DNA of 64,000 nt, taken from the NCBI GenBank assembly GCA_964477745.1, contig CAYZEI010000001.1:64393-128392 (forward strand), read 5' to 3'. The stretch's first letter is position 1. Every line of letters starts with the position of its first letter. Both the position numbers and the translations under genes were made by a program. The notes below the pieces were generated by a model. The model had not been told where the DNA came from. It made no database searches and worked only from the letters and a program-made list of their open reading frames with translations. The DNA is from an uncultured Candidatus Saccharibacteria bacterium. Lineage in GTDB: Bacteria > Patescibacteriota > Doudnabacteria > UBA920. Positions 4,706 through 46,576 of the stretch are shown here, one piece after another.

Positions 4706-4739
4706 AGAGTGCTAAATGCATTTTAGCATTTAGCACTCT
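4706..4739 (-). promoter_or_regulatory. CIRCE-like inverted repeat (AGAGTGCTAAATGC-N6-GCATTTAGCACTCT) upstream of hrcA
   Basis: Perfect 14-bp arms containing the CIRCE half-sites GAGTGCTAA / TTAGCACTC, ~30 nt upstream of hrcA start. Confidence 0.65.
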
Positions 4740-4809
4740 AAGGTGTCAAGTGATAATTCTATTAAAATTTACCTCTGTTTTTAAGGCAAATTATTCGGAA
4801 AAAACCCTT

Positions 4810-5406
4810 TTATTGAATCTCCCCTGTTACCACCCAGCGAGCCAAGGCTGTACCGACCGGATATGAGGTCTGCAGGGTAATCAACTTTTTAGTATTCCCT
4901 TTTTGGTCTAAGACAGAAAGATCGTTCGCCGAAACTCGCCGACTGCTTGTTACCACATAAGTAAATTTATTTCCGTTTTCATCGCTAATATTTATTTCCG
5001 CACCAAGACTAATGGATGGCAAAACCGCGAACACCGTTTTATACTTGCCCTGATTCCAAAAAAAATCCGAGGAGTGACCAAAAAAATATGCATTACCTAA
5101 GTCCCCGGGATTAGAAGTCCCCGGAAAATGAACAACCCCTTGCTCCAATGCTTTTTGATATACCGTTTCCGAATTTTCGGTAACATAAACAACCGGCGCG
5201 GAAATATTCAGACTTGAAATTTCCAATCGGTTTGCCTGCATTTTTTTTGGGATACGCTTGTAGGATTCAGAAAATACATAAACATAAGTTCTCCCGCCAA
5301 ACAAGTATCGAAAATTTGCTAAAAAATAATTAAAATTTAAAACCAAAATCACCACGGGTAAAATACCTATTAAAATACCTATTTTTCTTTTTTTAGATAA
5401 TCCCAT
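4810..5406 (-). CDS. Sortase-like transpeptidase homologue (TLQTSYP in place of TLxTC)
   Basis: N-terminal TM anchor, conserved His (FFGHSS) and Arg (LARW) positions, TLxT[S]xP where catalytic Cys expected; adjacent to LPXTG protein. Confidence 0.55.
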   Translation of the reverse strand: MGLSKKRKIGILIGILPVVILVLNFNYFLANFRYLFGGRTYVYVFSESYKRIPKKMQANRLEISSLNISAPVVYVTENSETVYQKALEQGVVHFPGTSNPGDLGNAYFFGHSSDFFWNQGKYKTVFAVLPSISLGAEINISDENGNKFTYVVTSSRRVSANDLSVLDQKGNTKKLITLQTSYPVGTALARWVVTGEIQ

Positions 5407-5473
5407 AGTTTTAATTATACCATTTTAAAAGTCCGACCCGATATTATCAGGGCGGACTTTTAAAATTTTCAGG

Positions 5474-7093
5474 TTAAACCAATTTAAGTTTTTTATCCGC
5501 TAAAACCAAGGCGATGCCGAATATCAACAAAATGTAGCCCACCGGCATTCCGGTTCTCGGTAAAGTTGTGGAAGCTCCTAATACTTGAGGAACCGGATTA
5601 CTGGTTGCCACAGCAGGAACATCTGTTGATGCTCCTAATACCATAGGCGACCCCGTGGTTACTAAAGTTGGAGTAACACCGCCACCGGAAGGAATTCCAC
5701 TTCCACCACTACTTCCTCCCCCGCCGCTTCCTCCGCTACCGCCACCTGATATTGTGGACACGCTTAGCTCAACACCAGTGACTTCCGGAGAGCCGTGAGA
5801 AACCGGGCGGAAAAAATAAGTTGAGCCGGCGGTTAATCCGGAAATAACTACGCTATGAGTGGTGATTAAACTCGCATCTTCTACCGAAGAATTTGCATAA
5901 CCATAATTAGCATCACTTCCTAAAACCGAATGAGAAACCGTATCGTAAACTACGCGACTGGTTGCCGGATGGTTTGTGGTCCAAGTAATTGTGGCCGAAG
6001 TTTGACCAACTTCTCCCAATTGTTCACCGGAAATTTCCAAATTCCAAGTATTGGTAATTACACACTCTGTTTGAGAATCAACCAATACTCTTGTCGAACC
6101 CTCCGCGCAAGACTCACTAAAAGTTGTTGCATACCCTTCCGGTCCGGATTCGCTAACGGCATATCGGCCCGCAGTAAGCGTATAGGAAGTGCCGGTAACC
6201 GAGCCGGGCTGAGGACTGCCGACAACATCTTCAGAAACCTCTCCGACAGTTTTAACATGAATACTAAAATCAGATGAAGTTGCTGTTCCGCCAACAACCA
6301 ACTTTGAGACCTTCAAAGTTCCGGTTGAACCTTCGCCTTCTCCCCCACCGCTGGCTTTATCGGTAGCTTCCACTGTACAGGCGTTAATATCTCCTACTGC
6401 TATATTTCCGCTACAACCGGAAGAATAAGTAAAATCATACCCTGCGTCTGACGTGGAAATATCGTAAGCACCGGCATCCATGGTTATTAACGTCCCTAAG
6501 GAAGAGCCGGGAAAAGATGCTGAGCTAGGATTGGTGGCCGTAACATTAAAAGTAAAATCGCCGGCGGTTTTGGTTCCGCCATTGCTATTGGTAACGTTCA
6601 CCAACACATTTACACTGGGTGCATATGCCGTGTTGGTTACGGTACAAGTTTTAGTGTCTTCCCCTAGAGTGATTGAAGAGGAACAATTATCATAAGATGT
6701 AATATAGCCCGGAACAGCAACTTCAGTAACCCGATAATTTCCGTTCAGTGAAAAATTAAACGGCACACCGGTTTCGCTACCGACAAAATCCTGATTCACA
6801 ATTAAAGCTCCCGGCATAGTTGGGATGTATCGTAAATGCAAATTAAAATCACCGGCAGTTTTGGTACCGCCGAAATTATTTACCACATGCTTTACCACCG
6901 TTAAATTGGACACGGCAACAGCCTGAACCGGAGTTCGTCCGTACATAACTATTAAGGCGACAATTAATAACCCGCCGACTAATTTATTCCAAGCAATAGG
7001 CTCGTAAGAATTCCTTACGGCATCACCATAAACTCTTCGTACTGCAATCCCTTGCTTGGTATGTTTGATTGTGATTTTTGATTTTTTTATCAT
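5474..7093 (-). CDS. Cell-surface protein with C-terminal LPRTG sorting signal and repeated NGGTKTAGDF beta-domains
   Basis: N-terminal TM/signal, Gly/Ser linker, LPRTG + hydrophobic stretch + KKLKLV tail. Confidence 0.7.
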   Translation of the reverse strand: MIKKSKITIKHTKQGIAVRRVYGDAVRNSYEPIAWNKLVGGLLIVALIVMYGRTPVQAVAVSNLTVVKHVVNNFGGTKTAGDFNLHLRYIPTMPGALIVNQDFVGSETGVPFNFSLNGNYRVTEVAVPGYITSYDNCSSSITLGEDTKTCTVTNTAYAPSVNVLVNVTNSNGGTKTAGDFTFNVTATNPSSASFPGSSLGTLITMDAGAYDISTSDAGYDFTYSSGCSGNIAVGDINACTVEATDKASGGGEGEGSTGTLKVSKLVVGGTATSSDFSIHVKTVGEVSEDVVGSPQPGSVTGTSYTLTAGRYAVSESGPEGYATTFSESCAEGSTRVLVDSQTECVITNTWNLEISGEQLGEVGQTSATITWTTNHPATSRVVYDTVSHSVLGSDANYGYANSSVEDASLITTHSVVISGLTAGSTYFFRPVSHGSPEVTGVELSVSTISGGGSGGSGGGGSSGGSGIPSGGGVTPTLVTTGSPMVLGASTDVPAVATSNPVPQVLGASTTLPRTGMPVGYILLIFGIALVLADKKLKLV

Positions 7094-7413
7094 AAGTTTT
7101 ATTTAACTGATTAATTGCCTAAAGCCACTATTAATAGTGACTAATATAAGCAATACTAATGTCTGTTAGACAATTTTATCACAATTATGTTGTAACTTAC
7201 AAGCATTTTAGTGTATAACCTGTTGATGATTGGTGCTAATTAAAAATGCTTATAATTAAAAGCGAAATTGCCCTTAAGAAGGGTTTACAAACCACAAAAA
7301 ATTTGGTAAAATTATAAATCTTGTCGAATGTTCGGACGGCAAGAAATGTCCTGGGTAGCTTTTCTCAATTGAGCCCAGGAATCCTCTATTCCGAACCAGG
7401 AGGAGGGCTGGAG

Positions 7414-7965
7414 ATGATCCATCCCCAGAAGAGTGGTTACCGTGCGGTAGCCATATTCACTCTCGTCTTGGTTGCCGTGGTGCTTTGCGCCCCGGTCGCC
7501 ACAGGCGCGCCAATCAATCTCTATAACACGTTGGACAACACAGCCACCGGGCTGATTTGCACGACGTGTACACCAATCGCTACCAGTGGCCAAGTGGTCT
7601 CTGGATACGCGATCGGGTCTTCGGACCCGAACATCAACAACACAGGAGCGTGGCTGTTCGCGTTGATCTTCCCTGACCTTGGAGGAACTGACGCGGGTCT
7701 TGCAGACCACGTTAAATTGCTAACCGGGGCATCCATGCCAATGCTTGCCCAAGTGTTGATTGATCCCCACACCACCTTCACAGGAACCTCTTCCGGCGGC
7801 ACCTACACCGTTGGAGACGCCTCCTACGTTGTCCACATTGTCAGCGGTGGTAATGGAGGTGGCGGTGGCGGCAACGATCCGGGCGGACAGGTGCCGGAAC
7901 CTGCCAGCGTCGGACTCGTTGGCGCCGGAATCGGCGCAATCTTGTACTCCCGCTTCCGGCGGTAG
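7414..7965 (+). CDS. Secreted protein with PEP-CTERM sorting signal (VPEPASVGLVGAGIGAILYSRFRR)
   Basis: AGGAGGG RBS 7 nt upstream of ATG, signal peptide, Gly-rich linker, canonical PEP + TM + RR C-terminus; locally GC-rich. Confidence 0.6.
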   Translation: MIHPQKSGYRAVAIFTLVLVAVVLCAPVATGAPINLYNTLDNTATGLICTTCTPIATSGQVVSGYAIGSSDPNINNTGAWLFALIFPDLGGTDAGLADHVKLLTGASMPMLAQVLIDPHTTFTGTSSGGTYTVGDASYVVHIVSGGNGGGGGGNDPGGQVPEPASVGLVGAGIGAILYSRFRR

Positions 7966-8136: not shown

Positions 8137-8637
8137 CTAGCGGGTAATACATATTGGCGGATTTCCAACAGAAGATTCAACTGTGTAAGCACAAACTGTA
8201 ACTCTGCCAGTAGTTGCATCTTTAAATACATGATAGCCTGTATCATAAGAAGTCGGACTAACATAAGCAGCCACTGCAGGTGTTGTTGTGCTTGGATCAA
8301 AAGGCAAAGCTGAAATATAGGTCGGTACCAAACATGGAGCAATATCATATCCGGCAGAATTACCCATCCTTGTTGCTGCTGTCGGGATATCAGTTGTACA
8401 ACCAGTCCCTGTAAACACTCCTTTATTGTCAGCCATCCTTTGTCCGACTGCATTTAAAATTGCATTTACATTGCTTGTTCTTTGAGTATTTCTGGATAAA
8501 GCAAATTGTCTCGCCGGGTTAATGGCGATTAATACGATTACCGCCAAAATGGCAATAATACCGATAACCACCAAAATTTCAATAAGGGTAAACCCTTCTT
8601 GCTTTGAAGCTAAAAGCTTCTTCATATTTTTAGTCAT
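8137..8637 (-). CDS. Type IV pilin (prepilin; KQEG/FTLIEILVV class III signal)
   Basis: Prepilin leader ending in Gly followed by FTLIE and hydrophobic helix; own promoter region, likely major pilin; true start may be internal ATG at 8625. Confidence 0.8.
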   Translation of the reverse strand: MTKNMKKLLASKQEGFTLIEILVVIGIIAILAVIVLIAINPARQFALSRNTQRTSNVNAILNAVGQRMADNKGVFTGTGCTTDIPTAATRMGNSAGYDIAPCLVPTYISALPFDPSTTTPAVAAYVSPTSYDTGYHVFKDATTGRVTVCAYTVESSVGNPPICITR

Positions 8638-8859
8638 ACCTTTAAATTTAATTAATTCTAAATTTGAACTTTTATATTTTTGGCCAAACTGCGGTCAAAA
8701 TTAATCTTTAATAATGTACAGAATTTATATCACGTCCTATAAAAAATGTCCAGCCTTTATTTATGCCAAACTTTAAGTTTTTTCTGCAAAATAAAGGGGA
8801 AATTTTGTCTCTTATCGACCGTTTAATTTTTAAGAGACTTAAAATATCGATTTATAAAC

Positions 8860-9321
8860 TTAAGAACAAACATCCGTAAAATTTGGGGCGGTAAATTTTG
8901 GGCATTCTACCCATGAAATAGTTTTAAAATTATTTGCCGGATCCACTGTAATTAATAAATTTGTATAACTACCTTGGTACTGCGCTTGGGTTCTGACCTC
9001 TTTGTAAGCGCCGTTAGTGAACACACCGGCAATTACACAAGATTGTCCGGCACTAACTAAAACGTTATCACCGCCTCCGGCCGGACTATAGCTCGAATTA
9101 TTTACTAAATTCAACAATGCCCTGTCTACACAAGCCTGTGCTAAAGAATAACTTCGTTCTTTATATTCGCTTTCTAAAATATTTACCCGGCTAAAATAAT
9201 TTATACTGCTTAAAGCAAAGCTAACGGTAACCAACAAAAGCGTAATAATAATTACGGAAGTAACCGCAATGTACCCCCGCTCGGTATTTTTGCCGTGTGT
9301 TTTTTTAGCGGTACTTATCAT
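8860..9321 (-). CDS. Pilin-like / minor pilin protein
   Basis: N-terminal hydrophobic helix, 4-nt overlap with upstream pseudopilin gene, in pilus operon. Confidence 0.5.
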   Translation of the reverse strand: MISTAKKTHGKNTERGYIAVTSVIIITLLLVTVSFALSSINYFSRVNILESEYKERSYSLAQACVDRALLNLVNNSSYSPAGGGDNVLVSAGQSCVIAGVFTNGAYKEVRTQAQYQGSYTNLLITVDPANNFKTISWVECPKFTAPNFTDVCS

Positions 9322-9788
9322 TTACGTATATATTTTGTTAATTTAAAATCTTGTCCGCTAATTTTAAAATATGCCGTCAACCAAATCTGAATTCCGTTGG
9401 TGTTTCTCACAAACGAAAAATCTGTAATTTGCACATTTTGACTATTTAAATTTTGGCCGTCCATTTGAACATTACTACCGATATTGGCAAAAGTTATTGA
9501 AACCGGTGACGCATACCGAGTGACAGTTAAGTGTTGCGGATCGGGCACAGAAATGTCAGAAGCGGAACCCATAGCCCAACCGATTTTTTTTAAAATAAAA
9601 TTGCCTTCCTGTTGAATCACAATCTTTTTCTGCACCTGATCGGCAGAAGCAATTGTCTGAAAAGTTACACCCAGCAGACTCCCAACCAACAAAGCAAAAA
9701 ATGCAATATAAATTAATGTCTCAATTAAGGTAAACCCGTCAGAAGGCTTGCAGGCAAATGTTAAACTGCGGGCAGTTTTGAATTTCAT
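9318..9788 (-). CDS. Prepilin-type pseudopilin (GFTLIETLIY)
   Basis: Class III signal motif G/FTLIE. Confidence 0.65.
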   Translation of the reverse strand: MKFKTARSLTFACKPSDGFTLIETLIYIAFFALLVGSLLGVTFQTIASADQVQKKIVIQQEGNFILKKIGWAMGSASDISVPDPQHLTVTRYASPVSITFANIGSNVQMDGQNLNSQNVQITDFSFVRNTNGIQIWLTAYFKISGQDFKLTKYIRK

Positions 9789-9829
9789 AAATATTTACGG
9801 TAAATCTTTTTTAAGATTATACTCCTACT

Positions 9830-11314
9830 CTACTGCATCTTTAATATCTTCAAACCTTCTTGAGATTTAATGGCCAAATAAACCAAGCCGTTCTGGTAAA
9901 CAATCCCGGCGCCGGCGCCGGACAGCGATGCGGTGGTACAGGCTGCGGGTATGGATGCCGGGGATGACACGTTATACACCTGGAAACCCACAAACGACAG
10001 ACTGCTGGCCACAAAGGCATAGTTCCCGGAAACGGTAATCCCGTTAGCCGCGTAACTTAAAGTCTTGGCACCAAGCTTGGTTAAGATCGGCGCGGCAGAA
10101 TTATCTAATACATAAAAGCCACGCGGGAGCACTGAACCTCCAACCGGCCCCGGGGACGTTCCTAAATAAAACTTTCCTCCGGAAAAATAAAGTGACTGCC
10201 CACCGGCTGCACCAAGATCGCTAAATTGCGTGGCAAACACAGGAGCACCACTTGCGATGTTTAAAACAATTTCCTGAGCGGCACTGCTATTCACTGCCAA
10301 GTAAGCATAATCTCCCCGAACATATATGGCATTTACTCTGGAGCCGACTTCATAAGACCCTCCGCTCACCAACACCGGACTGCCGGGCACGGTGGCATCT
10401 ACCACAAAAAATTCCGGTCCGACTGAATTATTCTCGGTAGCGATATAAACATAGTCATGATTATTGTTAGGGTTTTTGTAGTACACAATAGCGGTAGCTG
10501 GCATAGCATTTCCGGGCAAAGCAAAAGTCGAGCCGGAAATAATTGAAGCCGATCCCGGAACGGTGACATCTGCTATTTGAAATTGTCCGGTGCTTTTGGC
10601 CGTAGCTAAATAGGAATAAATATGTGGACCAACTGTTGCCGTATCAACCGCATTTACGCTACCACTGCCCGTGGACAAAGATTTTAAAACACTTGGAGAC
10701 TGAAAATTATTTGCGTCAACTACATAAAAATCGTCTCCCGAAGAGGCACTCGGTCTAACGGCTAAATATACCGTATTACCGATTACATCCAAACCGTTTG
10801 CAAAACTCCCGCTGGGCAAATTTAACGGACTTCCTGTTGTTTGAATGCTGGGACAAGTCGCCGGTGGCGCAGAGTTAGGACCGCACCCGCCTTGAGCCAC
10901 ACACTGATTCAAATTAACCAGGGTGCTGGATAGCACAACATTTTGGTTGCGCCCGTCAATTACCCACGAGACCGTTTCCGTAACATTTTTTACATCGCTA
11001 GAAACGTCTATCACACTCAATGAGCAACTATAATCCATTGCCGTCCCACAAGCATATGCCGAAATATTTTTAATCCCGTCAAAATTGGTCTGAGCCAAGG
11101 AACGAAAACTTTCCACGGCTTCTTGGGCAATTTGTAAGGCCTCATTGTTGCGCTGTGAGTCCACAGAAATGGATTGGTTGCCAAAAGCCAGGGTCGCTAC
11201 TCCGCCTAAACTAATGGAAAAAATTGAAAAGGCAATCAGCATTTCCAAAGTTCCATATCCCGCCAGTTTTGAGTTTTTTTGATTATTCATTTGCTTTACA
11301 TTAAAATTATTCAA
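9830..11314 (-). CDS. Large pilin-leader protein with LVIVD-type beta-propeller repeats (putative pilus tip/adhesin)
   Basis: AGYGTLEMLIAF prepilin-like N-terminus; repeated YAYLAV / YVYIAT / GPEFFVVDATVPGSP motifs typical of LVIVD repeats. Confidence 0.55.
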   Translation of the reverse strand: MNNFNVKQMNNQKNSKLAGYGTLEMLIAFSIFSISLGGVATLAFGNQSISVDSQRNNEALQIAQEAVESFRSLAQTNFDGIKNISAYACGTAMDYSCSLSVIDVSSDVKNVTETVSWVIDGRNQNVVLSSTLVNLNQCVAQGGCGPNSAPPATCPSIQTTGSPLNLPSGSFANGLDVIGNTVYLAVRPSASSGDDFYVVDANNFQSPSVLKSLSTGSGSVNAVDTATVGPHIYSYLATAKSTGQFQIADVTVPGSASIISGSTFALPGNAMPATAIVYYKNPNNNHDYVYIATENNSVGPEFFVVDATVPGSPVLVSGGSYEVGSRVNAIYVRGDYAYLAVNSSAAQEIVLNIASGAPVFATQFSDLGAAGGQSLYFSGGKFYLGTSPGPVGGSVLPRGFYVLDNSAAPILTKLGAKTLSYAANGITVSGNYAFVASSLSFVGFQVYNVSSPASIPAACTTASLSGAGAGIVYQNGLVYLAIKSQEGLKILKMQ

Positions 11315-11320
11315 AATATA

Positions 11321-11779
11321 TTACCAATCCACTCTGCCGTTTGCCCCAATGACAATGGAAGTGCTTCGCTTCCCGTCACCAAGTGTAATTGTCCCGGCGC
11401 CGGCAACCACATTCCCCGACACTTGAGCAAATACTATTTCTCCCGGACTGCTGTGGTTTATGTAAGTATCGGCAGGAATTACTTGATCTTGAGAATTGGC
11501 GCCTCCATAACCGGAGCGGTCAAAAAGAATATACTTATCGTTTTCAAAATATACCCCATGAGCAGTTTGACCAAGATTGTTTAAACTTTTACTGCGGGCT
11601 TTTTGTAAAATTGAAACCAGCGTGTCGCGTTCGGAATTAAAGGCATAAGAGCGGTAAAGATCTAAAGTTACCAACAAACCCAAAGTGGCGAGTACAGACA
11701 TAATTCCCATCACCACTAAAAGTTCAATTATGGTAAATCCTTTAATCTCCCTTGCGGGTTGATAATTAAAAATTCTCAT
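11321..11779 (-). CDS. Prepilin-type pseudopilin (KGFTIIELLVV)
   Basis: Class III signal motif. Confidence 0.7.
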   Translation of the reverse strand: MRIFNYQPAREIKGFTIIELLVVMGIMSVLATLGLLVTLDLYRSYAFNSERDTLVSILQKARSKSLNNLGQTAHGVYFENDKYILFDRSGYGGANSQDQVIPADTYINHSSPGEIVFAQVSGNVVAGAGTITLGDGKRSTSIVIGANGRVDW

Positions 11780-11780
11780 A

Positions 11781-12875
11781 CTAGGGATGTAATTTCTGGG
11801 TTACGGAATAAATCGGCGTAATAATCGAAATCGCCACAAATCCAACCATTAACCCCATAAATACCATAAGCACCGGCTCAATTAGACTGGATAAATTTTT
11901 TGTTAAATCATCCACTTCTTCTTCGTACATTTCGGCTAAATACAAAAAAGTTTCGCTTAAATTTCCCGCGGTCTCTCCGATTGCCACCATATGAGACATC
12001 ATGTCCGGAAAATATTTAGGGTGGGTAATTAAATAACTGGAAATCGGCTGACCTCGACTGACTGCCTGGCTAATAAATTCAAACTGCTCCCGGTAAACCA
12101 AATTTTCTGTCGTCGTGGCGGTAGTGGACAAAGCCTCGTCAATCCGTGCATCCCCTTTTAACAACAAGCCCATGGTTCGGGCGAAATTTGCCAAGTAATA
12201 ATCCTGAGCAATAGTCCCGGCTATGGGTAATTTTAATATAAAATTTTGGACCGGTTTTTTAAACCAGGGTTTTCGCATTAAAAAATAAACCGTAACTATT
12301 CCGGCAATAAACAATAAAAGAACCAACCAACCATAACTAATTAAGAACCGACTTACCACTATTAAAATTTTTGTGGACACCGGCAACGGAACATTAATAC
12401 TGGCAAAAATCGGCAACACTTTCGGGAACACAACTACTGTTAAAAGACCGATCATGCCGATTGTGGCGACAACAATAAAAACCGGGTAAATTAAAGCGGC
12501 CTGAACTTTTTTTCGTAGAGCCTGATTTTTTTTCAGTTCCTCGGCTAAATACTGCAAATTTTCCGCCAATATTCCGCCATGCTCGCCAACCCGAATAATA
12601 TTTACTGCAAAATCTCCGAATACCCGACGAAATTTTTCCATTGCGGTAGACAAAAAGTGCCCATTAGCCACATCGGAAATAATAGACTCAAAAATTACGC
12701 GGGAAGACTTTTGCTTAATTTGCTTGGTAATTAATTGCAAACTTTCCAAAATTGGCACTCCGGCCTTCATTAAAAAAGACAGCCGCTTGGCGAACAACAC
12801 CTGTTCTTGTTTGGAAAAGCGCGGTGTGTTAAACCATGAAAAAGATTTTTTTGTGTCTGCGGTTACGTTGTTCAT
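11781..12875 (-). CDS. pilC: Type IV pilus assembly platform protein PilC (GspF family)
   Basis: Two GspF-type domains, three TM segments, conserved ...GE.G.L...L ... motifs. Confidence 0.85.
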   Translation of the reverse strand: MNNVTADTKKSFSWFNTPRFSKQEQVLFAKRLSFLMKAGVPILESLQLITKQIKQKSSRVIFESIISDVANGHFLSTAMEKFRRVFGDFAVNIIRVGEHGGILAENLQYLAEELKKNQALRKKVQAALIYPVFIVVATIGMIGLLTVVVFPKVLPIFASINVPLPVSTKILIVVSRFLISYGWLVLLLFIAGIVTVYFLMRKPWFKKPVQNFILKLPIAGTIAQDYYLANFARTMGLLLKGDARIDEALSTTATTTENLVYREQFEFISQAVSRGQPISSYLITHPKYFPDMMSHMVAIGETAGNLSETFLYLAEMYEEEVDDLTKNLSSLIEPVLMVFMGLMVGFVAISIITPIYSVTQKLHP

Positions 12876-12897
12876 AAAAATAAACTAATAAAATAAT

Positions 12898-14118
12898 TTA
12901 TTCGTGAGCTACTCTCAAAACTTCTTCCACTGTGGTTATCCCGGCCGCGGCTTTTTCCATACCGTCTTGCCCCATTGGGATCATACCGTGAGTAATGGCA
13001 ATCTCTTTAATCTCTGAGGCGGTGGCTTTTTTTAAAATCGCCTCACGAATTGCATCATCTATCTCCAATACTTCGTGAATCGCCACTCTCCCCTTGTAGC
13101 CGGTCTGATTACAATCCTCGCACCCCTTGCCTCTATAAAATGTTTTATACTTTTTTAATATTCCGACCGGTATTTCCTCGGACAACGCTTTTATTTCCGT
13201 TGGGGTAAATTTATACTCCGCCTTACAGTTGCCACAAATTTTTCTTACCAATCTTTGACCAATGGCTACATTTACCGTGGAAGCAACCAAGAAGGCTTCT
13301 ATCCCCATATCCAGTAGGCGTGGTAAGGTGGTGGCCGGATCGTTCGTATGCAAAGTGGAAAGTAACAAGTGTCCGGTTAACGCGACATTAATCGCTATTC
13401 CGGCTGTTTCAGAATCTCGGATTTCTCCCACCATAATTATATTAGGATCTTGTCTTAATATAGAGCGAAGGCCGTTGGCGAAAGTTAGGCCGGTTCTGGG
13501 GTTTACACCTATTTGTTCAATGCCGGCCACTGCGTACTCAATTGGGTCTTCAATGGTAATAATAGAGACTTCCGGTTTACTAAGCATTTTAATAATTGTA
13601 TACAGAGTTGTTGTTTTTCCCGAGCCGGTCGGGCCGGTGGCCAAAATCATTCCGTAAGGCTTTTTCATTGCCCTAAGAATTTTTTTTCGGTTTGGTTCGG
13701 AAAAACCCAAGGTCTCCAGAGTATGGCTTTCTTCTTGAGCGGACAATAACCTCATTACGGCATTTTCGCCGTAATAAGTCGGGGCAATGGAAACGCGAAC
13801 ATCCAAGGGTTCTTGGTCTTTAAATTGCAAACGGAACCGACCATCTTGCGCAGCTTGGTGTTCATCGGTGCGTAGACCGGAAAGAATTTTAATTCTGGAG
13901 ATAACTTCTCCGTGAATGCTTTTTGGAAAGGATAAGGTCTCTATTAATACTCCATCCACCCGAAGTCTAACCCGAACATTTTTTTCTGCCGGATCAATAT
14001 GAATGTCCGAGGAACGGATTTCGCTGGCATAGGCCACAATATCTTGGACTAAATTAATAATAGATACTTGGCTGGGCTTATTTATTTCTTCCTTAATTTT
14101 TGAAAGCAATAATGACAT
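12898..14118 (-). CDS. pilB: Type IV pilus assembly ATPase PilB/GspE family
   Basis: Walker A GPTGSGKTTT, Asp/His boxes, tetracysteine CGNC...CEDC motif. Confidence 0.85.
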   Translation of the reverse strand: MSLLLSKIKEEINKPSQVSIINLVQDIVAYASEIRSSDIHIDPAEKNVRVRLRVDGVLIETLSFPKSIHGEVISRIKILSGLRTDEHQAAQDGRFRLQFKDQEPLDVRVSIAPTYYGENAVMRLLSAQEESHTLETLGFSEPNRKKILRAMKKPYGMILATGPTGSGKTTTLYTIIKMLSKPEVSIITIEDPIEYAVAGIEQIGVNPRTGLTFANGLRSILRQDPNIIMVGEIRDSETAGIAINVALTGHLLLSTLHTNDPATTLPRLLDMGIEAFLVASTVNVAIGQRLVRKICGNCKAEYKFTPTEIKALSEEIPVGILKKYKTFYRGKGCEDCNQTGYKGRVAIHEVLEIDDAIREAILKKATASEIKEIAITHGMIPMGQDGMEKAAAGITTVEEVLRVAHE

Positions 14119-31319: not shown

Positions 31320-31775
31320 CTACCGATTCAAGCCGGCAAGCTCTGGCAGTGTGCCGTAGTAGCCGACATACCGTTTTTGGCCGGCGACATTTGCTTCAAA
31401 CAATAGAGCCAGCACCCCTACCTTTCCGGAGGGTCTATCGGTCTCCAACTTCCGACAGTCCCAGACCCGAAACTCCGAGTCGCTTGATTCAACGCTGAGA
31501 CGACGCCCCAAACGGCGCCATTCGGCTGCCAGTTTGTCGTACGACATTTTGTGCTTGCGCGATTGCCCTGCCCAGCAGGACTTTTCCTGGGCGTAAAAAC
31601 CATACACCCCGGCTTCGGTTAGAAGTTCGAGGATATAAACCAGAAGCACCTGGTCTCGACACAACCGGACGTGGCACAAATCTACACGTCCTCCTGACGG
31701 ATCTTTCAGAAATAGAGCCACTGGCTCACCTCCTACAAGTCTGTATTTTTCATAAGGCGAAATTAATCGCCCCAA
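31320..31775 (-). CDS. Hypothetical 151-aa protein in GC-rich island (TTG start)
   Basis: Open frame with GC-rich codon usage distinct from host; terminator hairpin 31262..31297. Confidence 0.3.
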   Translation of the reverse strand: MGRLISPYEKYRLVGGEPVALFLKDPSGGRVDLCHVRLCRDQVLLVYILELLTEAGVYGFYAQEKSCWAGQSRKHKMSYDKLAAEWRRLGRRLSVESSDSEFRVWDCRKLETDRPSGKVGVLALLFEANVAGQKRYVGYYGTLPELAGLNR

Positions 31776-31882
31776 GATTTGAGCAGTATAACAAATAAGT
31801 TTAATAAAAGAAAGAGGCGGCCCAGGGTTACCAGGCCGCCTTGCACATCGCGTTGTGGGCGGGTGCTTGCGGGGGAACTATT

Positions 31883-32341
31883 TCAGGCATGAGCAGACGA
31901 TGCGGAAGGGACGAGCCCGGCCCGTTGCATTACCAACGGACCATGTATCCACGCCAGGAGTTGGAGGTGAGAAAATGTGACCTCCGCCTTTCGGATGGCT
32001 TCGCCATCAAAGGCGTGTTCGATCAGAATTTGGACACACCCCTCTTCTGGCTGAGGCTCGCACTGAACCATGGTGAACCCGTCACCTTTCTTCGTTCCTT
32101 GGTTTCGCTGTTCCCGGAGCGCCTTACCGCACAGACGAAACCGCTTCGCGAAGACCCCAAAGGCCAATTGGGGATTTCTCAGCTCAGGACAAGAATCCAT
32201 GTGAGCACGGAGATACTCCGCGACATCACAGGATTTTACTTCCCCTACCAACGGCTTGATGACAATATCTCGAGGAGCTACATCTCCTGAGGCCAAACTG
32301 GCACCTGAAGAGAACGTCAAACGATCAGTGTGTTTGCTCAT
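31883..32341 (-). CDS. Hypothetical 153-aa protein in GC-rich island
   Basis: AGAGGA RBS, ATG at 32341; terminator hairpin 31812..31842. Confidence 0.35.
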   Translation of the reverse strand: MSKHTDRLTFSSGASLASGDVAPRDIVIKPLVGEVKSCDVAEYLRAHMDSCPELRNPQLAFGVFAKRFRLCGKALREQRNQGTKKGDGFTMVQCEPQPEEGCVQILIEHAFDGEAIRKAEVTFSHLQLLAWIHGPLVMQRAGLVPSASSAHA

Positions 32342-32573
32342 CAATCCTCTTTTGTCTATAATATTTCCGGCCGTCCTGAGAAAATTTGAACGCCGAATTT
32401 AATTTAAATATTACTCCTACATAAACCATCTTGTCAAAGCCTCTCCTTGGCTAACGTTAGAGATACTGATATACTGATGCATGCTGATGGCGCTGAGAAA
32501 TTCCGATATCATTAAAATTTGATATCAGTATTATCCGTTTCATCTGTATTAATCCGTATATCAGTATCATATT

Positions 32574-33659
32574 ATGTCTTTTCAAATCGGCATCGTCGGC
32601 CTGCCTAACGTCGGCAAAAGCACCCTGTTTAACGCTATTACCAAAAGTAAAGTAGAAGCTGCCAATTATCCGTTTGCCACCATAGACCCAAACGTTGGCG
32701 TGGTTGCTGTGCCGGATGAACGCCTGGCAAAACTTTCGGAATTAGAAAAGAGTGAAAAAATTGTGCCTACATCCATAGAATTTGTAGATATTGCCGGGCT
32801 GGTAAAAGGCGCTTCCACGGGGGAAGGTTTGGGCAATAAATTTTTAAGCCACATCCGCGAAGTGGACGCGATTTTGGAAGTAGTGCGGGTATTTGAAAAT
32901 AAAGATATTATCCACGTTAACGGCAACGTTGACCCAAACCGCGATATGGAAACTATTGCCATTGAACTACAATTGGCGGATTTACAAAATGTAAACAACC
33001 GGCTAAATACTACAAGTAAACTGGCCAAATCCGGCGACCGCGACGCGGTGGTAAAAAAACAAGTTTTGGAAAAATATAAATTAGCTTTGGAAAAAGGTGA
33101 AATGGTGCGAACCGTAATGTTAACCGATGAAGAAAAAGAACACAGCAAAGATATTATTTTGCTGACCAATAAACCAATTATGTATGTGGTAAATGACGAA
33201 TTTAATTTAGAGAAAAAACAATTTGCTTCGGAAATTGCCAATGTTAAATTACCAATTGCTAATCCAATCCCAATTGATGCAAAAATTGAAAGCGAGCTGG
33301 CGGAACTGGAAGACGCAGAAAGAGCCGACTACCTCAAAGAACTCGGCCTTCCGGAATCCGGTTTGGATAAAATTATTAAATCTGCCTACAAAACTTTAGG
33401 CCTGATTACTTTTATAACTGCCGGGCCAAAAGAAAGTAAAGCCTGGACTTGCACCGCGGGTAGCAAAGCCCCACAAGCGGCCGGAAAAATTCATACCGAT
33501 TTTGAAAAAGGATTTATTCGCGCGGAAGTGATTCAATGGGACAAACTGCTGGAAGCCAAAGGATACGTTGGCGCCAAAGAAAAAGGTTGGCTTAGAGTAG
33601 AAGGCAAAGAATACGTTGTCCAAGACGGCGATGTAGTTCACTTTAGATTCACCGCTTAA
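32574..33659 (+). CDS. ychF: Ribosome-binding ATPase YchF (Obg family)
   Basis: GIVGLPNVGKSTLFNA P-loop, TGS C-terminal domain. Confidence 0.9.
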   Translation: MSFQIGIVGLPNVGKSTLFNAITKSKVEAANYPFATIDPNVGVVAVPDERLAKLSELEKSEKIVPTSIEFVDIAGLVKGASTGEGLGNKFLSHIREVDAILEVVRVFENKDIIHVNGNVDPNRDMETIAIELQLADLQNVNNRLNTTSKLAKSGDRDAVVKKQVLEKYKLALEKGEMVRTVMLTDEEKEHSKDIILLTNKPIMYVVNDEFNLEKKQFASEIANVKLPIANPIPIDAKIESELAELEDAERADYLKELGLPESGLDKIIKSAYKTLGLITFITAGPKESKAWTCTAGSKAPQAAGKIHTDFEKGFIRAEVIQWDKLLEAKGYVGAKEKGWLRVEGKEYVVQDGDVVHFRFTA

Positions 33660-33766
33660 AAATTCATAGCTCCCCTCTCCAGTACATGGAGAAAGGTTTT
33701 TAACAAAAGAAAAACGCGAGCCGTGAGGTCCGCGTTCTGCATGCCAACCGGGCAAGCTCGGGTTGT

Positions 33767-33985
33767 TTAGGCTCCTTTGACGAAGCCGATGATGATCAAC
33801 CACGCCGCTAGGGCATTGCACCCCCAGAACAGGGGTTTTGAACAGGTTTTCCGAAACCCATCCCACAGTGTCTGATACATTCCGGCGATTGAGCCAGTGT
33901 TGTTCAACGACTGGCTAAGAATTGGGATTCCCCACAAGACTGTGGAGAACAGGATGACACAAAGACCTAAAAAGATGAGAATCAT
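33767..33985 (-). CDS. Small two-TM membrane protein in GC-rich mini-island
   Basis: AAGGAGG RBS before MILIFLG...; hairpin terminator downstream. Confidence 0.35.
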   Translation of the reverse strand: MILIFLGLCVILFSTVLWGIPILSQSLNNTGSIAGMYQTLWDGFRKTCSKPLFWGCNALAAWLIIIGFVKGA

Positions 33986-40976: not shown

Positions 40977-41507
40977 CTAACTTTTCAAAAAAACCTTGGC
41001 AGACAGCACGGCTCTGGAGCCTTCCCCTACCGAGGTTACTGAATTACCCGGCGCCCCGGACAAAACAGACCCACCCGCAAACAGTCCGGGAACATTGGTG
41101 GCCATTTGTGCGTCCACTTTAATTTTATTTTTAAAATCTTTAAATGCGGTTAAATCAAAAGCTGTATTACCTTCATGAGTTACGGAATTCTCACCGCTAC
41201 AAATAATAACACTTTTAGCATAAAAAGTTTGTCCGCTTTTTGTTTCCACAGAAAAACTAATCACGTTTTTTTCCAAAGAAGTTACTTCCTGTTTTAAGTA
41301 TAATTCAAAAAATTGAGCAGAGTTTTCTGTTACTTTAACTAATTCTTTTTGCATTTTTTTAGCATCGAATAAATTTAACTCTGTCGCTCCAACTTTTAGA
41401 ACGGAAAATTCCTTTGCCACCAGCAAAGTTTTTAGTTTTAATTTTACGGCGGTCAGCGCCGCGGACATTCCGGACATCCCCGCACCGATGATTATAATGT
41501 CATGCAT
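40977..41507 (-). CDS. Thioredoxin-reductase-like FAD-domain protein lacking the NADPH/redox-disulfide domain
   Basis: IIIIGAGMSGMSAA Rossmann and VPGLFAGG motifs alignable to both ends of trxB (45644..46576); 176 aa. Confidence 0.5.
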   Translation of the reverse strand: MHDIIIIGAGMSGMSAALTAVKLKLKTLLVAKEFSVLKVGATELNLFDAKKMQKELVKVTENSAQFFELYLKQEVTSLEKNVISFSVETKSGQTFYAKSVIICSGENSVTHEGNTAFDLTAFKDFKNKIKVDAQMATNVPGLFAGGSVLSGAPGNSVTSVGEGSRAVLSAKVFLKS

Positions 41508-45643: not shown

Positions 45644-46576
45644 CTAAATGCTTTCTGCTAAATACTTCTCCACATCCAATGCGGCCATACAGCCCATACC
45701 GGCTGCGCTTATGGCTTGGCGGTAACGCGGATCATTTACGTCCCCGGCAACAAACACGCCGGCAATATTGGTGTGGGTGTTGTTTTGTACTTTTATATAA
45801 CCCTTAGCGTCCGTCTCCACGCCGGCCGCGGCAAAAATTTTCGTTGCCGGGGTGTGGCCAATGGCCAAAAATATTCCTTGTAAAGACAAAACAGATTCCT
45901 CGCCTGACTGATTATCTTTAATCTTTAATCCTTCAACTGTGTTCTCGCCCACCACATCCAGCACTGCCACATTGGTCACAAAAGAAATTTTTGGGTTATC
46001 CTGCGCCCGCTTTAACATTATTTTTGAAGCTTTAAATTCCGCCCGACGATGGACAATATAAACTTTATTGGCAAAGCGGGTTAAAAAGTTGGCTTCTTCC
46101 ATAGCTGAGTCTCCCCCGCCAATTACGGCCACATCTTTTCCTTTAAAGAAAAACCCGTCGCAAGTGGCGCAAGCCGAAACTCCCTTACCCCTAAGGCGCT
46201 GTTCTCCGGGCAGGCCAAGCCAATTAGCTTCCGCGCCTGTGGCAATTATTACACTCTTGGCCAAATATTCACCTTTACCGGTTTTTACTTTAAACGGTTG
46301 CGCAGAAAAATCCACGCTCTCCACGTTCTCGGGCAAGATTGTGGTTTCAAACCGCTCTGCTTGCTTGGTCATATTATCCATTAGTTCCGGGCCCATAACA
46401 CCGTTAACAAACCCCGGAAAATTTTCCACTTCCGTAGTATCCATTAATTGTCCACCCGGCTTTAGTCCGGCTAAAACTAGTGGTTTTAATTCCGCTCGCC
46501 CGGCATAAATAGCCGCAGTTAACCCCGCAGGGCCGGAACCGATTATGATTACATTTTTGATTTCTTGATTGGTCAT
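45644..46576 (-). CDS. trxB: Thioredoxin reductase
   Basis: GSGPAG FAD motif, CATC redox centre, GGGDSA NADPH motif. Confidence 0.9.
   Translation of the reverse strand: MTNQEIKNVIIIGSGPAGLTAAIYAGRAELKPLVLAGLKPGGQLMDTTEVENFPGFVNGVMGPELMDNMTKQAERFETTILPENVESVDFSAQPFKVKTGKGEYLAKSVIIATGAEANWLGLPGEQRLRGKGVSACATCDGFFFKGKDVAVIGGGDSAMEEANFLTRFANKVYIVHRRAEFKASKIMLKRAQDNPKISFVTNVAVLDVVGENTVEGLKIKDNQSGEESVLSLQGIFLAIGHTPATKIFAAAGVETDAKGYIKVQNNTHTNIAGVFVAGDVNDPRYRQAISAAGMGCMAALDVEKYLAESI

What the first reader, a model, noticed from the sequence alone, without database searches (positions are those of the whole stretch)
4810..7093. Sortase homologue with Ser at the catalytic-Cys position, paired with an LPRTG substrate
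The 198-aa protein has the sortase layout: a TM anchor, a conserved His (FFGHSS) and a conserved Arg (LARW). Its signature is TLQTSYP, where sortases have TLxTC. The codon is TCA, so this is not a single-base miscall of Cys. The immediately upstream gene ends with LPRTG + TM + KKLKLV, a canonical sortase substrate. This is either an inactive pseudo-sortase or a serine-nucleophile variant.
Basis: partly seen in the sequence, partly recalled or inferred. Interest (0 to 1): 0.58.

Follow-up and report, generated by a model that had tools for sequence, protein, structure and literature searches.

The report
Serine-type sortase with paired substrate

Summary
ORF 4810-5406(-) is a membrane-anchored protein with the sortase fold. 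Ser181 (codon TCA) sits where sortases have the catalytic Cys, and His111 and Arg190 are in their usual places. The gene just upstream, 5474-7093(-), encodes a surface protein that ends in LPRTG, a membrane helix and DKKLKLV.

The Ser is not an error or decay. In a search with no word filter, the nearest ~115 cluster representatives all read LQTS[YW]PxGTA..R. Cys-bearing relatives (TL[IM]TC) appear only from E~6e-29. Gln at -2 pairs perfectly with Ser: 299 Q-x-S against 97 [IMAV]-x-C sequences, with no mixed forms. His and Arg never vary, and all six Ser codons are used.

Ser-type genes follow an LPxTG protein in 70 of 79 loci (LPRTG in 56). None of about 52 Cys-type sister loci do. Four independent in-frame substrate-sortase fusions exist.

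The likeliest reading is a dedicated sortase with a serine nucleophile (confidence ~0.55). The main rival is a pseudo-sortase that binds the signal without cleaving it (~0.27). I found no description of this in the literature searched. Two things are untested: whether the protein is catalytically active, and whether the same genomes also carry a Cys sortase.

The parts
4810..5406 (-). Ser-type sortase gene (198 aa, stop codon included)
   Evidence: Pfam PF04203 at 73.8 bits. AF2 model with pLDDT 89.6. Foldseek top hits are all sortases, e.g. 8t28 and 2xwg at E~5e-11.
5314..5382 (-). N-terminal membrane anchor (residues 9-31, IGILIGILPVVILVLNFNYFLAN), preceded by KKRK
   Evidence: Read from the sequence. 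AF2 models helices at 5-23 and 25-36. The N-in, C-out orientation is inferred from the positive-inside rule.
5074..5076 (-). His111 codon (CAC) in FFGHSS; position of the catalytic His
   Evidence: Aligned to the sortase catalytic His. Present in 151 of 151 relatives. Sits at the end of model strand 104-110.
4870..4872 (-). Gln179 codon (CAG), two residues before the Ser; strictly coupled to Ser
   Evidence: Gln in 116 of 116 Ser-type sequences, against Ile or Met in 30 of 30 Cys-type. Across all sequences held: 299 Q-x-S, 97 [IMAV]-x-C, no mixed forms.
4864..4866 (-). Ser181 codon (TCA) at the catalytic-Cys position of TLxTC
   Evidence: Placement. Across 82 loci the codons are TCT 26, TCG 20, TCC 17, TCA 16, AGC 2, AGT 1.
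4837..4839 (-). Arg190 codon (CGC) in LARW; position of the catalytic Arg
   Evidence: Aligned to the sortase Arg. Present in 145 of 145 sequences that cover the site.
5422..5466 (-). Strong stem-loop in the 67-nt spacer between the substrate and sortase genes. An extended -10-like TGGTATAAT follows at 5414-5422, 7 nt before the ATG.
   Evidence: RNA fold gives -26.2 kcal/mol, z -4.5, with 0 of 200 shuffles as stable. Spacers in 50 of 57 related loci also fold with z<-2, and the median spacer is 70 nt. The -10-like box was seen by eye and was not called by the promoter scan.
5474..7093 (-). Cognate substrate gene: 539-aa surface protein with an N-terminal signal/anchor, three SpaA_2 prealbumin-like domains, an FN3-like domain, a Gly/Ser linker and a C-terminal sorting signal
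   Evidence: Pfam SpaA_2 at 53.2 bits in 3 stretches, and Pur_ac_phosph_N/fn3. An equivalent upstream gene is present in 70 of 79 related loci.
5477..5563 (-). Sorting signal: LPRTG (5549-5563), hydrophobic helix MPVGYILLIFGIALVLA (5498-5548) and basic tail DKKLKLV (5477-5497). The conserved VLGAST lead-in lies just upstream, with an extra copy at 5624-5641.
   Evidence: Coordinates. Family consensus is P-(Q)VLGA-x-T-E-LPRTG-x-P.
4706..4739 (-). 14-bp-arm palindrome downstream of the sortase stop. It looks like a terminator and overlaps the -10 of the hrcA promoter (TTGACA-18-TAAAAT, 4720-4749). It marks the end of the sortase unit.
   Evidence: Consensus scan only.

Best explanation
Proposed function: This is a dedicated, membrane-anchored sortase-fold transpeptidase. 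Its nucleophile is a serine (Ser181) rather than the family's defining cysteine.

Proposed steps:
1. The protein encoded just upstream is exported through its N-terminal signal.
2. It is held in the membrane by its C-terminal helix and DKKLKLV tail.
3. The sortase domain faces outward from its own N-terminal anchor. It recognises the extended signal VLGAxTxLPRTG.
4. Ser181, deprotonated by His111, attacks the Thr-Gly bond. The oxyanion is stabilised by Arg190 and probably by the co-evolved Gln179 amide.
5. This gives an acyl-enzyme held by an oxygen ester.
6. An amine then resolves the ester, most likely from a peptidoglycan precursor. That leaves the adhesin-like protein covalently on the cell surface.

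The one-enzyme, one-substrate gene pairing, and the occasional fusion of the two, implies that only low turnover is needed. A slower serine nucleophile would be tolerable under that condition.

Shown here: the fold; the positions and invariance of Ser, His, Arg and Gln; the sorting signal; the gene linkage; the fusions.
Inferred: catalysis by Ser181, the role of Gln179, the identity of the acceptor, and the membrane topology.
For: 1. Fold and site. Pfam Sortase at 73.8 bits. AF2 model at pLDDT 89.6, with His at the end of strand 104-110, Ser at the end of strand 174-180 and Arg at the start of strand 189-197. The top 50 Foldseek PDB hits are all sortases. Ser181 aligns on the catalytic Cys.

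2. Deep conservation. All 120 word-indexed homologues have Ser. In the unbiased search of 1.84 billion representatives, every hit from E 3e-63 down to about 2e-29 that covers the site has LQTS[YW]P. That is 116 Ser against 30 Cys, with His in 151 of 151 and Arg in 145 of 145. All six Ser codons are used, which shows long synonymous turnover under amino-acid constraint.

3. A re-tuned active-site strand. Only four columns separate the Ser-type from its nearest Cys-type relatives, and all four lie in the catalytic motif: Q179 against I/M, S181 against C, Y/W182 against mostly T, and A187 against S/T/N/D. There are 299 Q-x-S and 97 [IMAV]-x-C sequences and no intermediates.

4. Substrate linkage specific to the Ser-type. 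An upstream same-strand ORF carrying LPxTG, a membrane helix and a basic tail is present in 70 of 79 loci (LPRTG 56, LPVTG 6, LPKTG 2). It is present in 0 of about 52 Cys-type sister loci. Within 5 kb there are 79 sorting-signal ORFs near the Ser-type and 2 dubious ones near the Cys-type. A motif-agnostic count gives 78 against 5.

5. Rosetta-stone fusions. Four divergent proteins read substrate-LPRTG-TM-basic loop-TM-sortase in one frame. L070 was checked on the DNA; the others are P0127, P0154 and P0158. All four keep LPRTG and LQTSYP.

6. No alternative nucleophile. There is no Cys in this protein, none in 59 of 83 family members, and no conserved Cys column.
Against: There is no biochemical evidence. 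The engineered C184S mutant of S. aureus SrtA is reported to have dramatically decreased activity (PMC4827206). It is also used as an inert cys-less scaffold (PMC5578623).

I could not read coordinates from the model, so the Ser-His-Gln geometry is unverified. Conserved characteristic replacements also occur in pseudoenzymes, so conservation alone does not prove catalysis.

I could not determine whether the same genomes also carry a Cys sortase that could do the cleavage. A strong hairpin separates the substrate and sortase genes, so co-transcription is not established. The acceptor is unknown, and hydrolysis is chemically as plausible as transpeptidation.
Confidence: 0.55

Rival explanations
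1. Pseudo-sortase acting as a substrate trap. The Ser variant binds the LPRTG signal of its neighbour but does not cleave it. It would act as a receptor, holdase or specificity adaptor. Any cleavage would be done by a canonical Cys sortase encoded elsewhere.
For: SrtA C184S is nearly inactive. Natural Cys-to-Ser pseudoenzymes that still bind their ligands are known in other families, for example the pseudophosphatase MK-STYX (my own knowledge). Cys-type relatives exist in CPR bacteria, so they could coexist in the same genomes. Gene linkage and fusion fit a binding partner as well as an enzyme.
Against: His111 and Arg190 are needed for chemistry, and they are invariant over a clade with about one substitution per site. 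Pseudoenzymes usually let such residues drift. The nucleophile position is always Ser, never Ala, Gly or Thr, and it uses all six codons. A polar Gln was recruited next to it in every member. The substrates keep a complete cleavable sorting signal. No Cys sortase lies within 10 kb of any of the 83 Ser-type loci fetched at that point.
Confidence: 0.27
2. Active serine enzyme that works as a hydrolase (sheddase) rather than a transpeptidase. It cuts at LPRT|G and releases the adhesin from its membrane helix into the envelope or medium. Alternatively it transfers the protein to a non-peptidoglycan acceptor.
For: The evidence is the same as for catalysis. In addition, oxygen-ester acyl-enzymes are generally partitioned to water more readily than thioesters. 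That is why subtiligase was engineered from Ser to Cys (my own knowledge). CPR envelopes are poorly known and the acceptor is unidentified.
Against: Serine acyl-enzymes do perform transpeptidation efficiently in penicillin-binding proteins (my own knowledge). The substrates carry typical wall-anchored adhesin domains such as SpaA, SdrD_B, DUF11, VWA and PA14. Nothing in the sequence distinguishes the two outcomes.
Confidence: 0.15
3. Artefact or recent decay: a sequencing error, a miscalled codon or a dying gene.
For: The window holds a single sequence. Cys to Ser can in principle be a one-base change (TGY to TCY or AGY).
Against: There are 299 distinct sequences with the same Q-x-S motif from many assemblies and at least 80 species-level genomes. 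The ORF is intact. The model is confident. TCA differs from TGT and TGC at two positions.
Confidence: 0.01

Closest known systems
Unnamed Cys-type sortases of CPR/Patescibacteria (alignment A2; motif GHSS[NDY]...TL[IM]TC[TWY]PxGT..R; e.g. a cluster containing PIX99379.1 from a Howlettbacteria MAG)
   Same: They are the closest sequence relatives (hhalign probability 100%, E 1.3e-67, 33% identity). They share the N-terminal anchor, the GHSS His motif, the PxGT..R tail, the domain size and the habitat.
   Different: They have Cys with Ile or Met at -2, where the Ser-type has Ser with Gln. None of about 52 loci has an adjacent sorting-signal protein, against 70 of 79 for the Ser-type.
Class C (pilin-specific) sortases, e.g. 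Actinomyces oris SrtC2 (PDB 8t28) and SrtC1 (2xwg)
   Same: They are the best structural matches (Foldseek E 5e-11 to 8e-11, 26% identity) and the best PDB sequence match. They are encoded next to their substrates, which carry SpaA-type Ig-like domains.
   Different: Class C enzymes use Cys, carry a lid (DPW/DPF-type) over the active site, and polymerise pilins through a pilin-motif Lys. I saw no DP[WFY] lid motif in the sequence here (by eye), and none of the few Lys contexts I read in the substrate was a YPKN pilin motif. The NCBIfam class C model scores 34.5 bits against a cutoff of 160.
Class D and E sortases (NCBIfam NF033746, NF058671, NF033747)
   Same: They are the best-scoring curated class models (47.9, 47.3 and 35.8 bits). 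They have the same His/Arg layout.
   Different: All scores are far below the class cutoffs of 140-165 bits. Class D and E recognise LPxTA or LAxTG, where this family recognises LPRTG. They use a Cys nucleophile.
Staphylococcus aureus SrtA C184S (engineered)
   Same: It has the same chemical substitution at the same position.
   Different: It is a single-site mutant without the compensating Gln at -2 or Tyr/Trp at +1. Its activity is reported as dramatically decreased (PMC4827206). The natural family has kept the Ser across a clade with about one substitution per site.
Dedicated sortase-substrate operons such as SrtB-IsdC (own knowledge, not tested here)
   Same: One specialised sortase is encoded beside the one protein it anchors, with a variant sorting motif.
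   Different: SrtB uses Cys and recognises NPQTN. No fusions of enzyme and substrate are known to me.
Nucleophile swaps in other enzyme clans: chymotrypsin-like Ser proteases versus picornaviral 3C Cys proteases; Ser-based D,D-transpeptidases (PBPs) versus Cys-based L,D-transpeptidases (own knowledge)
   Same: They show that a Ser/Cys exchange can preserve acyl-enzyme catalysis, and that a Ser ester can be resolved by an amine in cell-wall transpeptidation.
   Different: They have different folds. No such swap has been described for the sortase fold in the literature I could search.

Membership tests
Sortase superfamily (Pfam PF04203 / MEROPS C60) | Eight-stranded sortase beta-barrel domain | tested here: met
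   PF04203 at 73.8 bits against a cutoff of 26.6. AF2 model at pLDDT 89.6. All top Foldseek PDB hits are sortases.
Sortase superfamily (Pfam PF04203 / MEROPS C60) | Catalytic Cys in the TLxTC motif at the end of strand beta7 | tested here: not met
   Ser181 (TLQTS) occupies this column. The protein has no Cys. Ser is present in 116 of 116 clade members.
Sortase superfamily (Pfam PF04203 / MEROPS C60) | Catalytic His at the end of beta4 and catalytic Arg in beta8 | tested here: met
   His111 in 151 of 151 and Arg190 in 145 of 145. Both align to the His and Arg of 8t28 and 4tqx.
Sortase superfamily (Pfam PF04203 / MEROPS C60) | N-terminal membrane anchor with an extracytoplasmic catalytic domain | tested here: met
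   KKRK plus a hydrophobic stretch at residues 9-31, modelled as a helix. The orientation is inferred, not measured.
Sortase superfamily (Pfam PF04203 / MEROPS C60) | Cognate substrate with a tripartite sorting signal (LPxTG-like motif, hydrophobic helix, basic tail) | tested here: met
   The adjacent ORF ends LPRTG, a 17-residue helix and DKKLKLV. The same arrangement is found in 70 of 79 related loci.
Sortase superfamily (Pfam PF04203 / MEROPS C60) | Cleavage of the Thr-Gly bond and transpeptidation through an acyl-enzyme | not testable with these tools
   This needs enzyme assays and mass spectrometry.
Sortase classes A-F and GN (NCBIfam class models) | Score above the curated cutoff of a class model | tested here: not met
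   Best scores: class D 47.9/165, SrtD 47.3/140, E 35.8/160, C 34.5/160, F 33.9/166, GN 20.7/158. Even the generic TIGR01076 scores 34.9 against 39.35.
Pseudoenzyme (catalytically dead homologue) | Relaxed conservation of the remaining catalytic residues and a variable residue at the former nucleophile position | tested here: not met
   His, Arg and Ser are invariant, and Gln179 has been gained and fixed. This weakens the pseudoenzyme reading but does not exclude it.
Class C pilus-assembly system | A lid motif over the active site and a pilin-motif Lys (YPKN) in the substrate | tested here: not met
   Reading the two sequences by eye: no DP[WFY] motif between the anchor and strand 1, and no YPKN among the few Lys contexts I looked at in the 539-aa substrate. 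No pattern search was run. There is one substrate per locus, with very diverse sizes of 188-1562 aa.

The most novel reading that the evidence does not exclude
These would be the first natural sortases that use a serine nucleophile. They form a CPR-wide clade in which [I/M]-T-C became Q-T-S, with Gln recruited as a new active-site residue. Each works one-to-one on the LPRTG adhesin encoded beside it, and sometimes on the same polypeptide. That would amount to a self-contained anchoring module for a single surface protein. It would also be a cysteine-free, oxidation-insensitive scaffold for LPxTG ligation.
Probability: 0.5. Interest if true: 0.8.

Novelty: new variant of a known kind. Interest (0 to 1): 0.7.

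Why it matters
Sortases are defined as cysteine transpeptidases in textbooks, in MEROPS (family C60) and in every paper I retrieved. A large natural clade that keeps the fold, the His, the Arg and the substrate, but has swapped Cys for Ser together with a coupled Gln, would matter in four ways.

1. It would be a new example of nucleophile exchange, in a fold where none is known.
2. It would show which second-shell change makes Ser workable, since the engineered SrtA C184S is nearly dead.
3. It would offer a thiol-free enzyme for sortase-mediated ligation.
4. It would describe how CPR/Patescibacteria display their adhesins. These organisms live attached to other cells, and their surface biology is almost unknown.

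If the protein turns out to be a non-catalytic LPRTG receptor instead, it would be the first pseudo-sortase. The annotation also needs attention either way. Where the databases name these proteins at all, they call them plain 'sortase' or 'sortase A', and the missing Cys goes unnoticed.

Tried and rejected
- Second sortase in the window. An HMM built from the family, run with filters off against all six-frame ORFs, found only 4810-5406. Pfam scans of 47 of the 53 ORFs of 140 aa or more found no other sortase and no exosortase. The six not scanned are 31320-31775, 31841-32290, 31883-32344, 32666-33241, 33396-33866 and 46068-46508.
- Co-occurrence of Ser-type and Cys-type sortases in one genome. 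This could not be tested. No Cys-type lies within 10 kb of the 83 Ser-type loci fetched at that point. About 1.7 would be expected by chance if each genome had one, so this is uninformative. Matching contig lengths between the Ser-type and Cys-type lists gave no hit.
- Clean monophyly of the Ser clade. A neighbour-joining tree that excluded the motif columns needed 3 Ser/Cys changes. The largest pure Ser clade held 90 of 114 sequences. With 125 columns at about one substitution per site this is too noisy to decide. A single origin is inferred only from the perfect Q-S coupling.
- Asp114 (GHSSD) as the acid of a Ser-His-Asp triad. Rejected. It is not discriminating between the types, and some Ser-type members have N, R or G there.
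Rejected. Gln is invariant even where the neighbouring substrate has LPVTG, LPKTG, LPGTG or LPTTG.
- Assignment to a sortase class. Every curated class model scores far below its cutoff.
- Literature. Six full-text searches found no description of a natural Ser sortase or a pseudo-sortase. Meheust et al. 2019 note only that more than half of CPR genomes have a sortase.
- The GC-rich PEP-CTERM ORF as contamination or a chimeric assembly. Rejected as the sole explanation, because the same kind of gene recurs beside Ser-sortase loci in other genomes.
- Active-site distances.
Full report
**What is in the window.** ORF 4810-5406 on the minus strand encodes a 198-aa protein. It matches Pfam Sortase (PF04203) at 73.8 bits against a cutoff of 26.6, over residues 61-196. 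The protein starts with KKRK followed by a 23-residue hydrophobic stretch (residues 9-31). Its motifs are FFGH(111)SS, TLQTS(181)YP and LAR(190)W. The Ser181 codon is TCA at 4864-4866.

The gene immediately upstream on the same strand is 5474-7093, 539 aa. It has a basic-plus-hydrophobic N-terminal signal, three SpaA_2 prealbumin-like stretches, an FN3-like domain and a Gly/Ser linker. It ends ...PQVLGASTTLPRTG-MPVGYILLIFGIALVLA-DKKLKLV.

**Which residue sits at the catalytic site.** phmmer alignments to solved sortases put TLQTS181YPVG...R190 on LLTLVTCTPLG...R of Actinomyces oris SrtC2 (8t28). They also put it on VTLVTCTDAG...R of S. mutans SrtA (4tqx), and GH111 on the catalytic GH. A profile-profile alignment between 44 Ser-type sequences and 30 Cys-type relatives has probability 100% and E 1.3e-67. 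It aligns LTLQTSYPVGTALkR column for column with lTLiTCtPxGTslkR.

An AlphaFold2 model built on the family alignment is confident (mean pLDDT 89.6, pTM 0.78). It has the strand order of a sortase barrel. His111 closes strand 104-110, Ser181 closes strand 174-180 and Arg190 opens strand 189-197. The 50 best Foldseek matches in the PDB are all sortases. Class C enzymes come first, followed by classes A, D and E.

The protein has no cysteine. Of 83 family members, 59 have none, and no alignment column conserves one. I could not read model coordinates, so inter-residue distances are not verified.

**The serine defines a clade; it is not an accident.** The word-indexed search returned 120 homologues at 41-99% identity, and all have Ser. 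That search favours sequences sharing 5-mers with the query. I therefore repeated the survey with the unfiltered HMMER search of 1.84 billion cluster representatives. It found 3,517 hits at E<=1e-3, 1,635 at <=1e-10 and 95 at <=1e-30.

Among the query plus the best 150 hits, the catalytic column is Ser in 116, Cys in 30 and missing in 5 fragments. His is present in 151 of 151 and Arg in 145 of 145. Every hit that covers the site, from E 3e-63 down to about 2e-29, reads LQTS[YW]PxGTA..R. The first Cys-bearing relative appears at E 5.8e-29 and reads TL[IM]TC[TWY]PxGT..R.

Only four alignment columns separate the two groups, and all lie in this strand. Gln179 is found in 116 of 116 Ser-type sequences, against Ile or Met in 30 of 30 Cys-type. 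The others are Ser/Cys181, Tyr/Trp182 against mostly Thr, and Ala187 against Ser/Thr/Asn/Asp.

Across 82 loci the Ser is encoded by TCT 26, TCG 20, TCC 17, TCA 16, AGC 2 and AGT 1. The amino acid has therefore been held while the codon turned over.

The genome scan kept 80 species-representative genomes, all carrying the motif. Their labels are Doudnabacteria, Uhrbacteria, Yanofskybacteria, Kazan and 'Patescibacteria group', plus some automatically labelled bins whose names I do not trust. The window itself looks like a CPR genome. It has hrcA-grpE-dnaK, a type IV pilus cluster, uvrA, uvrC and RNase J, and it is about 41% GC.

**Linkage to the substrate.** Of 79 Ser-type loci with at least 900 nt of upstream DNA, 70 have a same-strand ORF ending within about 1.2 kb upstream of the estimated start of the sortase domain. 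That ORF carries LPxTG, a hydrophobic helix and a basic tail. The motif is LPRTG in 56, LPVTG in 6 and LPKTG in 2. An extended consensus P-(Q)VLGA-x-T-E-LPRTG-x-P is visible.

The substrates are otherwise very diverse, from 188 to 1,562 aa. They carry typical Gram-positive adhesin domains: SpaA, SpaA_2, SdrD_B, DUF11, VWA and PA14.

The contrast with the nearest Cys-type relatives is sharp. I fetched 80 loci with the Cys-type alignment, and 75 of them carry Cys. None of the roughly 52 with upstream DNA has such a neighbour. The only three loci in that set that do are Ser-type sequences picked up by the shared GHSS pattern.

Within 5 kb there are 79 sorting-signal ORFs in 709 kb around Ser-type genes. 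Around Cys-type genes there are 2 dubious ones in 415 kb. A count that ignores the motif and asks only for a C-terminal helix plus basic tail gives 78 against 5.

Four divergent proteins are in-frame fusions of the form passenger-LPRTG-helix-basic loop-helix-sortase domain. L070 8114-10591 was verified on the DNA. The others are P0127, P0154 and P0158. Two helices restore the correct topology, with both passenger and enzyme outside. All four keep LPRTG and LQTSYP. This is classical Rosetta-stone evidence that enzyme and neighbour work together.

**Expression signals.** The 67-nt spacer holds a 20-bp stem-loop at 5422-5466 (-26.2 kcal/mol, z -4.5). Spacers in 50 of 57 other loci also fold far better than shuffles, and the median spacer is 70 nt. 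In the window the hairpin is followed by TGGTATAAT, 7 nt before the ATG. I saw this by eye, and the scan did not call it.

The pair may therefore be expressed at different levels, or from separate promoters, rather than strictly co-transcribed. I treat the linkage as genomic, not as a proven operon.

**Mechanism.** The best-supported reading is a dedicated sortase that uses Ser181 as its nucleophile.
- **Arguments for retained chemistry:** His and Arg are invariant over a clade whose members differ by about one substitution per site. The nucleophile position is exclusively Ser, never Ala, Gly or Thr. A polar Gln has been fixed two residues earlier.
- **Position of the Gln:** On a beta strand, position -2 faces the same side as the nucleophile. 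From memory, the equivalent Ile182 of S. aureus SrtA lines the substrate groove, but I did not test this. A carboxamide there could help form the oxyanion hole or orient Ser and His, which a poorer nucleophile would need.
- **What the Gln does not do:** It does not track the Arg of LPRTG. It is invariant where the substrate has Val, Lys, Gly or Thr at that position.
- **Low turnover:** The one-to-one pairing and the fusions imply that each enzyme molecule needs to process few substrate molecules. That would tolerate slow chemistry.
- **Chemical precedent:** Serine esters are resolved by amines in penicillin-binding proteins (my own knowledge), so transpeptidation is chemically reasonable.

**Arguments against.** The engineered SrtA C184S is reported as nearly inactive (PMC4827206; PMC5578623). 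Conserved signature replacements also occur in pseudoenzymes. No assay exists. I therefore give the serine-enzyme reading 0.55. Within it, transpeptidation to the wall is somewhat more likely than hydrolytic release. The non-catalytic LPRTG-binding pseudo-sortase gets about 0.27. An artefact is excluded.

**Comparison with known families.**
- **Closest relatives:** the protein has the sortase fold, and its nearest relatives are unnamed Cys-type sortases of CPR bacteria. One cluster includes a Howlettbacteria protein.
- **Class membership:** it fits none of the curated classes. The NCBIfam class models score 21-48 bits against cutoffs of 140-166, and even the generic TIGR01076 falls below its cutoff.
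- **Resemblance to class C:** structurally it is closest to class C enzymes, and it shares their habit of sitting beside SpaA-domain substrates. I saw no lid motif by eye. None of the few Lys contexts I read in the substrate was a YPKN pilin motif.
- **Status as a sortase:** it fails the defining catalytic Cys of the family. I therefore file it as a new variant that probably works like a sortase, not as an ordinary member.

**Novelty.** Six full-text searches found no natural Ser sortase or pseudo-sortase. The terms covered serine sortase, pseudo-sortase, non-canonical sortase, sortase with CPR or Patescibacteria, C184S, and 'lacks the catalytic cysteine'. The one CPR-wide survey that mentions sortase records only its prevalence (PMC6744442). 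Where the databases give these proteins a name, it is plain 'sortase' or 'sortase A'.

**What remains open.**
- Whether genomes with the Ser-type also have a Cys sortase.
- The three-dimensional geometry of the site.
- The acceptor.
- Whether the switch happened once. A neighbour-joining tree was too noisy to tell.

Noticed in passing
window 7321-7965 (+), likely start at 7414; also L012 7868-8527, L016 7789-8469, L021 7954-8637, L037 7975-8652, L123 1447-2277(-): A PEP-CTERM-type protein lies divergently next to the substrate gene. It has a signal peptide, about 150 aa, a Gly run, then VPEP, a helix and RFRR (Pfam PF07589 21.4 bits against cutoff 20.7; TIGR02595 21.4 against 16). The same kind of gene sits directly upstream of the LPRTG substrate in at least four other Ser-sortase loci, sometimes in 2-3 copies. 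By my reading there are about 12 credible copies in 1.33 Mb of Ser-type loci (15 raw pattern hits) and none in 0.52 Mb of Cys-type loci (1 raw hit). All are much more GC-rich than their genomes: 0.53-0.62 against 0.38-0.42, and GC3 is 0.65 here against 0.28-0.45 in neighbouring genes. No exosortase is in the window. It is unclear what processes PEP-CTERM signals in a CPR bacterium.
   Followed up: partly
L070 8114-10591; proteins P0127, P0154, P0158: Natural single-polypeptide fusions of an LPRTG passenger, two membrane helices and the Ser-sortase domain. These would be self-processing candidates.
   Followed up: partly
proteins P0126, P0157, P0160, P0165, P0169: These Ser-type sortases carry a 100-200 aa insert between the membrane anchor and the catalytic domain. 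The insert contains DTDGDG/DTDSDG-type acidic repeats that look like calcium-binding sites.
   Followed up: no
L049 9923-10573 and 10997-11941: Two Ser-type sortase genes in tandem in one locus.
   Followed up: no
window 4706-4749 (-): A near-consensus promoter (TTGACA-18-TAAAAT with TG) lies upstream of hrcA. Its -10 box is the loop of a perfect 14-bp-arm palindrome, AGAGTGCTAAATGC/GCATTTAGCACTCT. The palindrome contains the two CIRCE half-sites in the opposite order to the textbook TTAGCACTC-N9-GAGTGCTAA, here GAGTGCTAA-N14-TTAGCACTC. It also looks like the terminator of the sortase gene. The everted order also occurs in L031, and the canonical order occurs in L036 and L038.
   Followed up: partly
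window 5422-5466 (-) and the equivalent spacers of 50 of 57 related loci: A strong stem-loop between the substrate and sortase genes is a recurrent feature of these loci. It may be an attenuator or terminator, or an element that stabilises the mRNA 3' end and sets the substrate-to-enzyme ratio.
   Followed up: partly
window 8137-14118 (-): A type IV pilus cluster lies about 1 kb from the start of the substrate gene. It has several N-methyl pilin-like genes, a 494-aa protein with no Pfam match, PilC-like T2SSF and a T2SSE ATPase. L001 likewise has N_methyl pilin-like genes near its sortase. Two different surface-appendage systems may therefore be side by side.
   Followed up: no
window 5624-5641 and 5564-5590 (-): The VLGAST lead-in of the sorting signal is duplicated in the substrate (…PMVLGASTDVPAVATSNPVPQVLGASTTLPRTG). 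The conserved VLGA box 5-9 residues before LPRTG is not a feature of classical sorting signals that I know of.
   Followed up: partly
window 40977-41507 (-) and 45644-46576 (-): A 176-aa ORF matches only the N-terminal part of a pyridine-nucleotide-disulphide oxidoreductase. It may be a truncated thioredoxin-reductase-like gene, and it lies a few kb from a full-length 310-aa copy.
   Followed up: no
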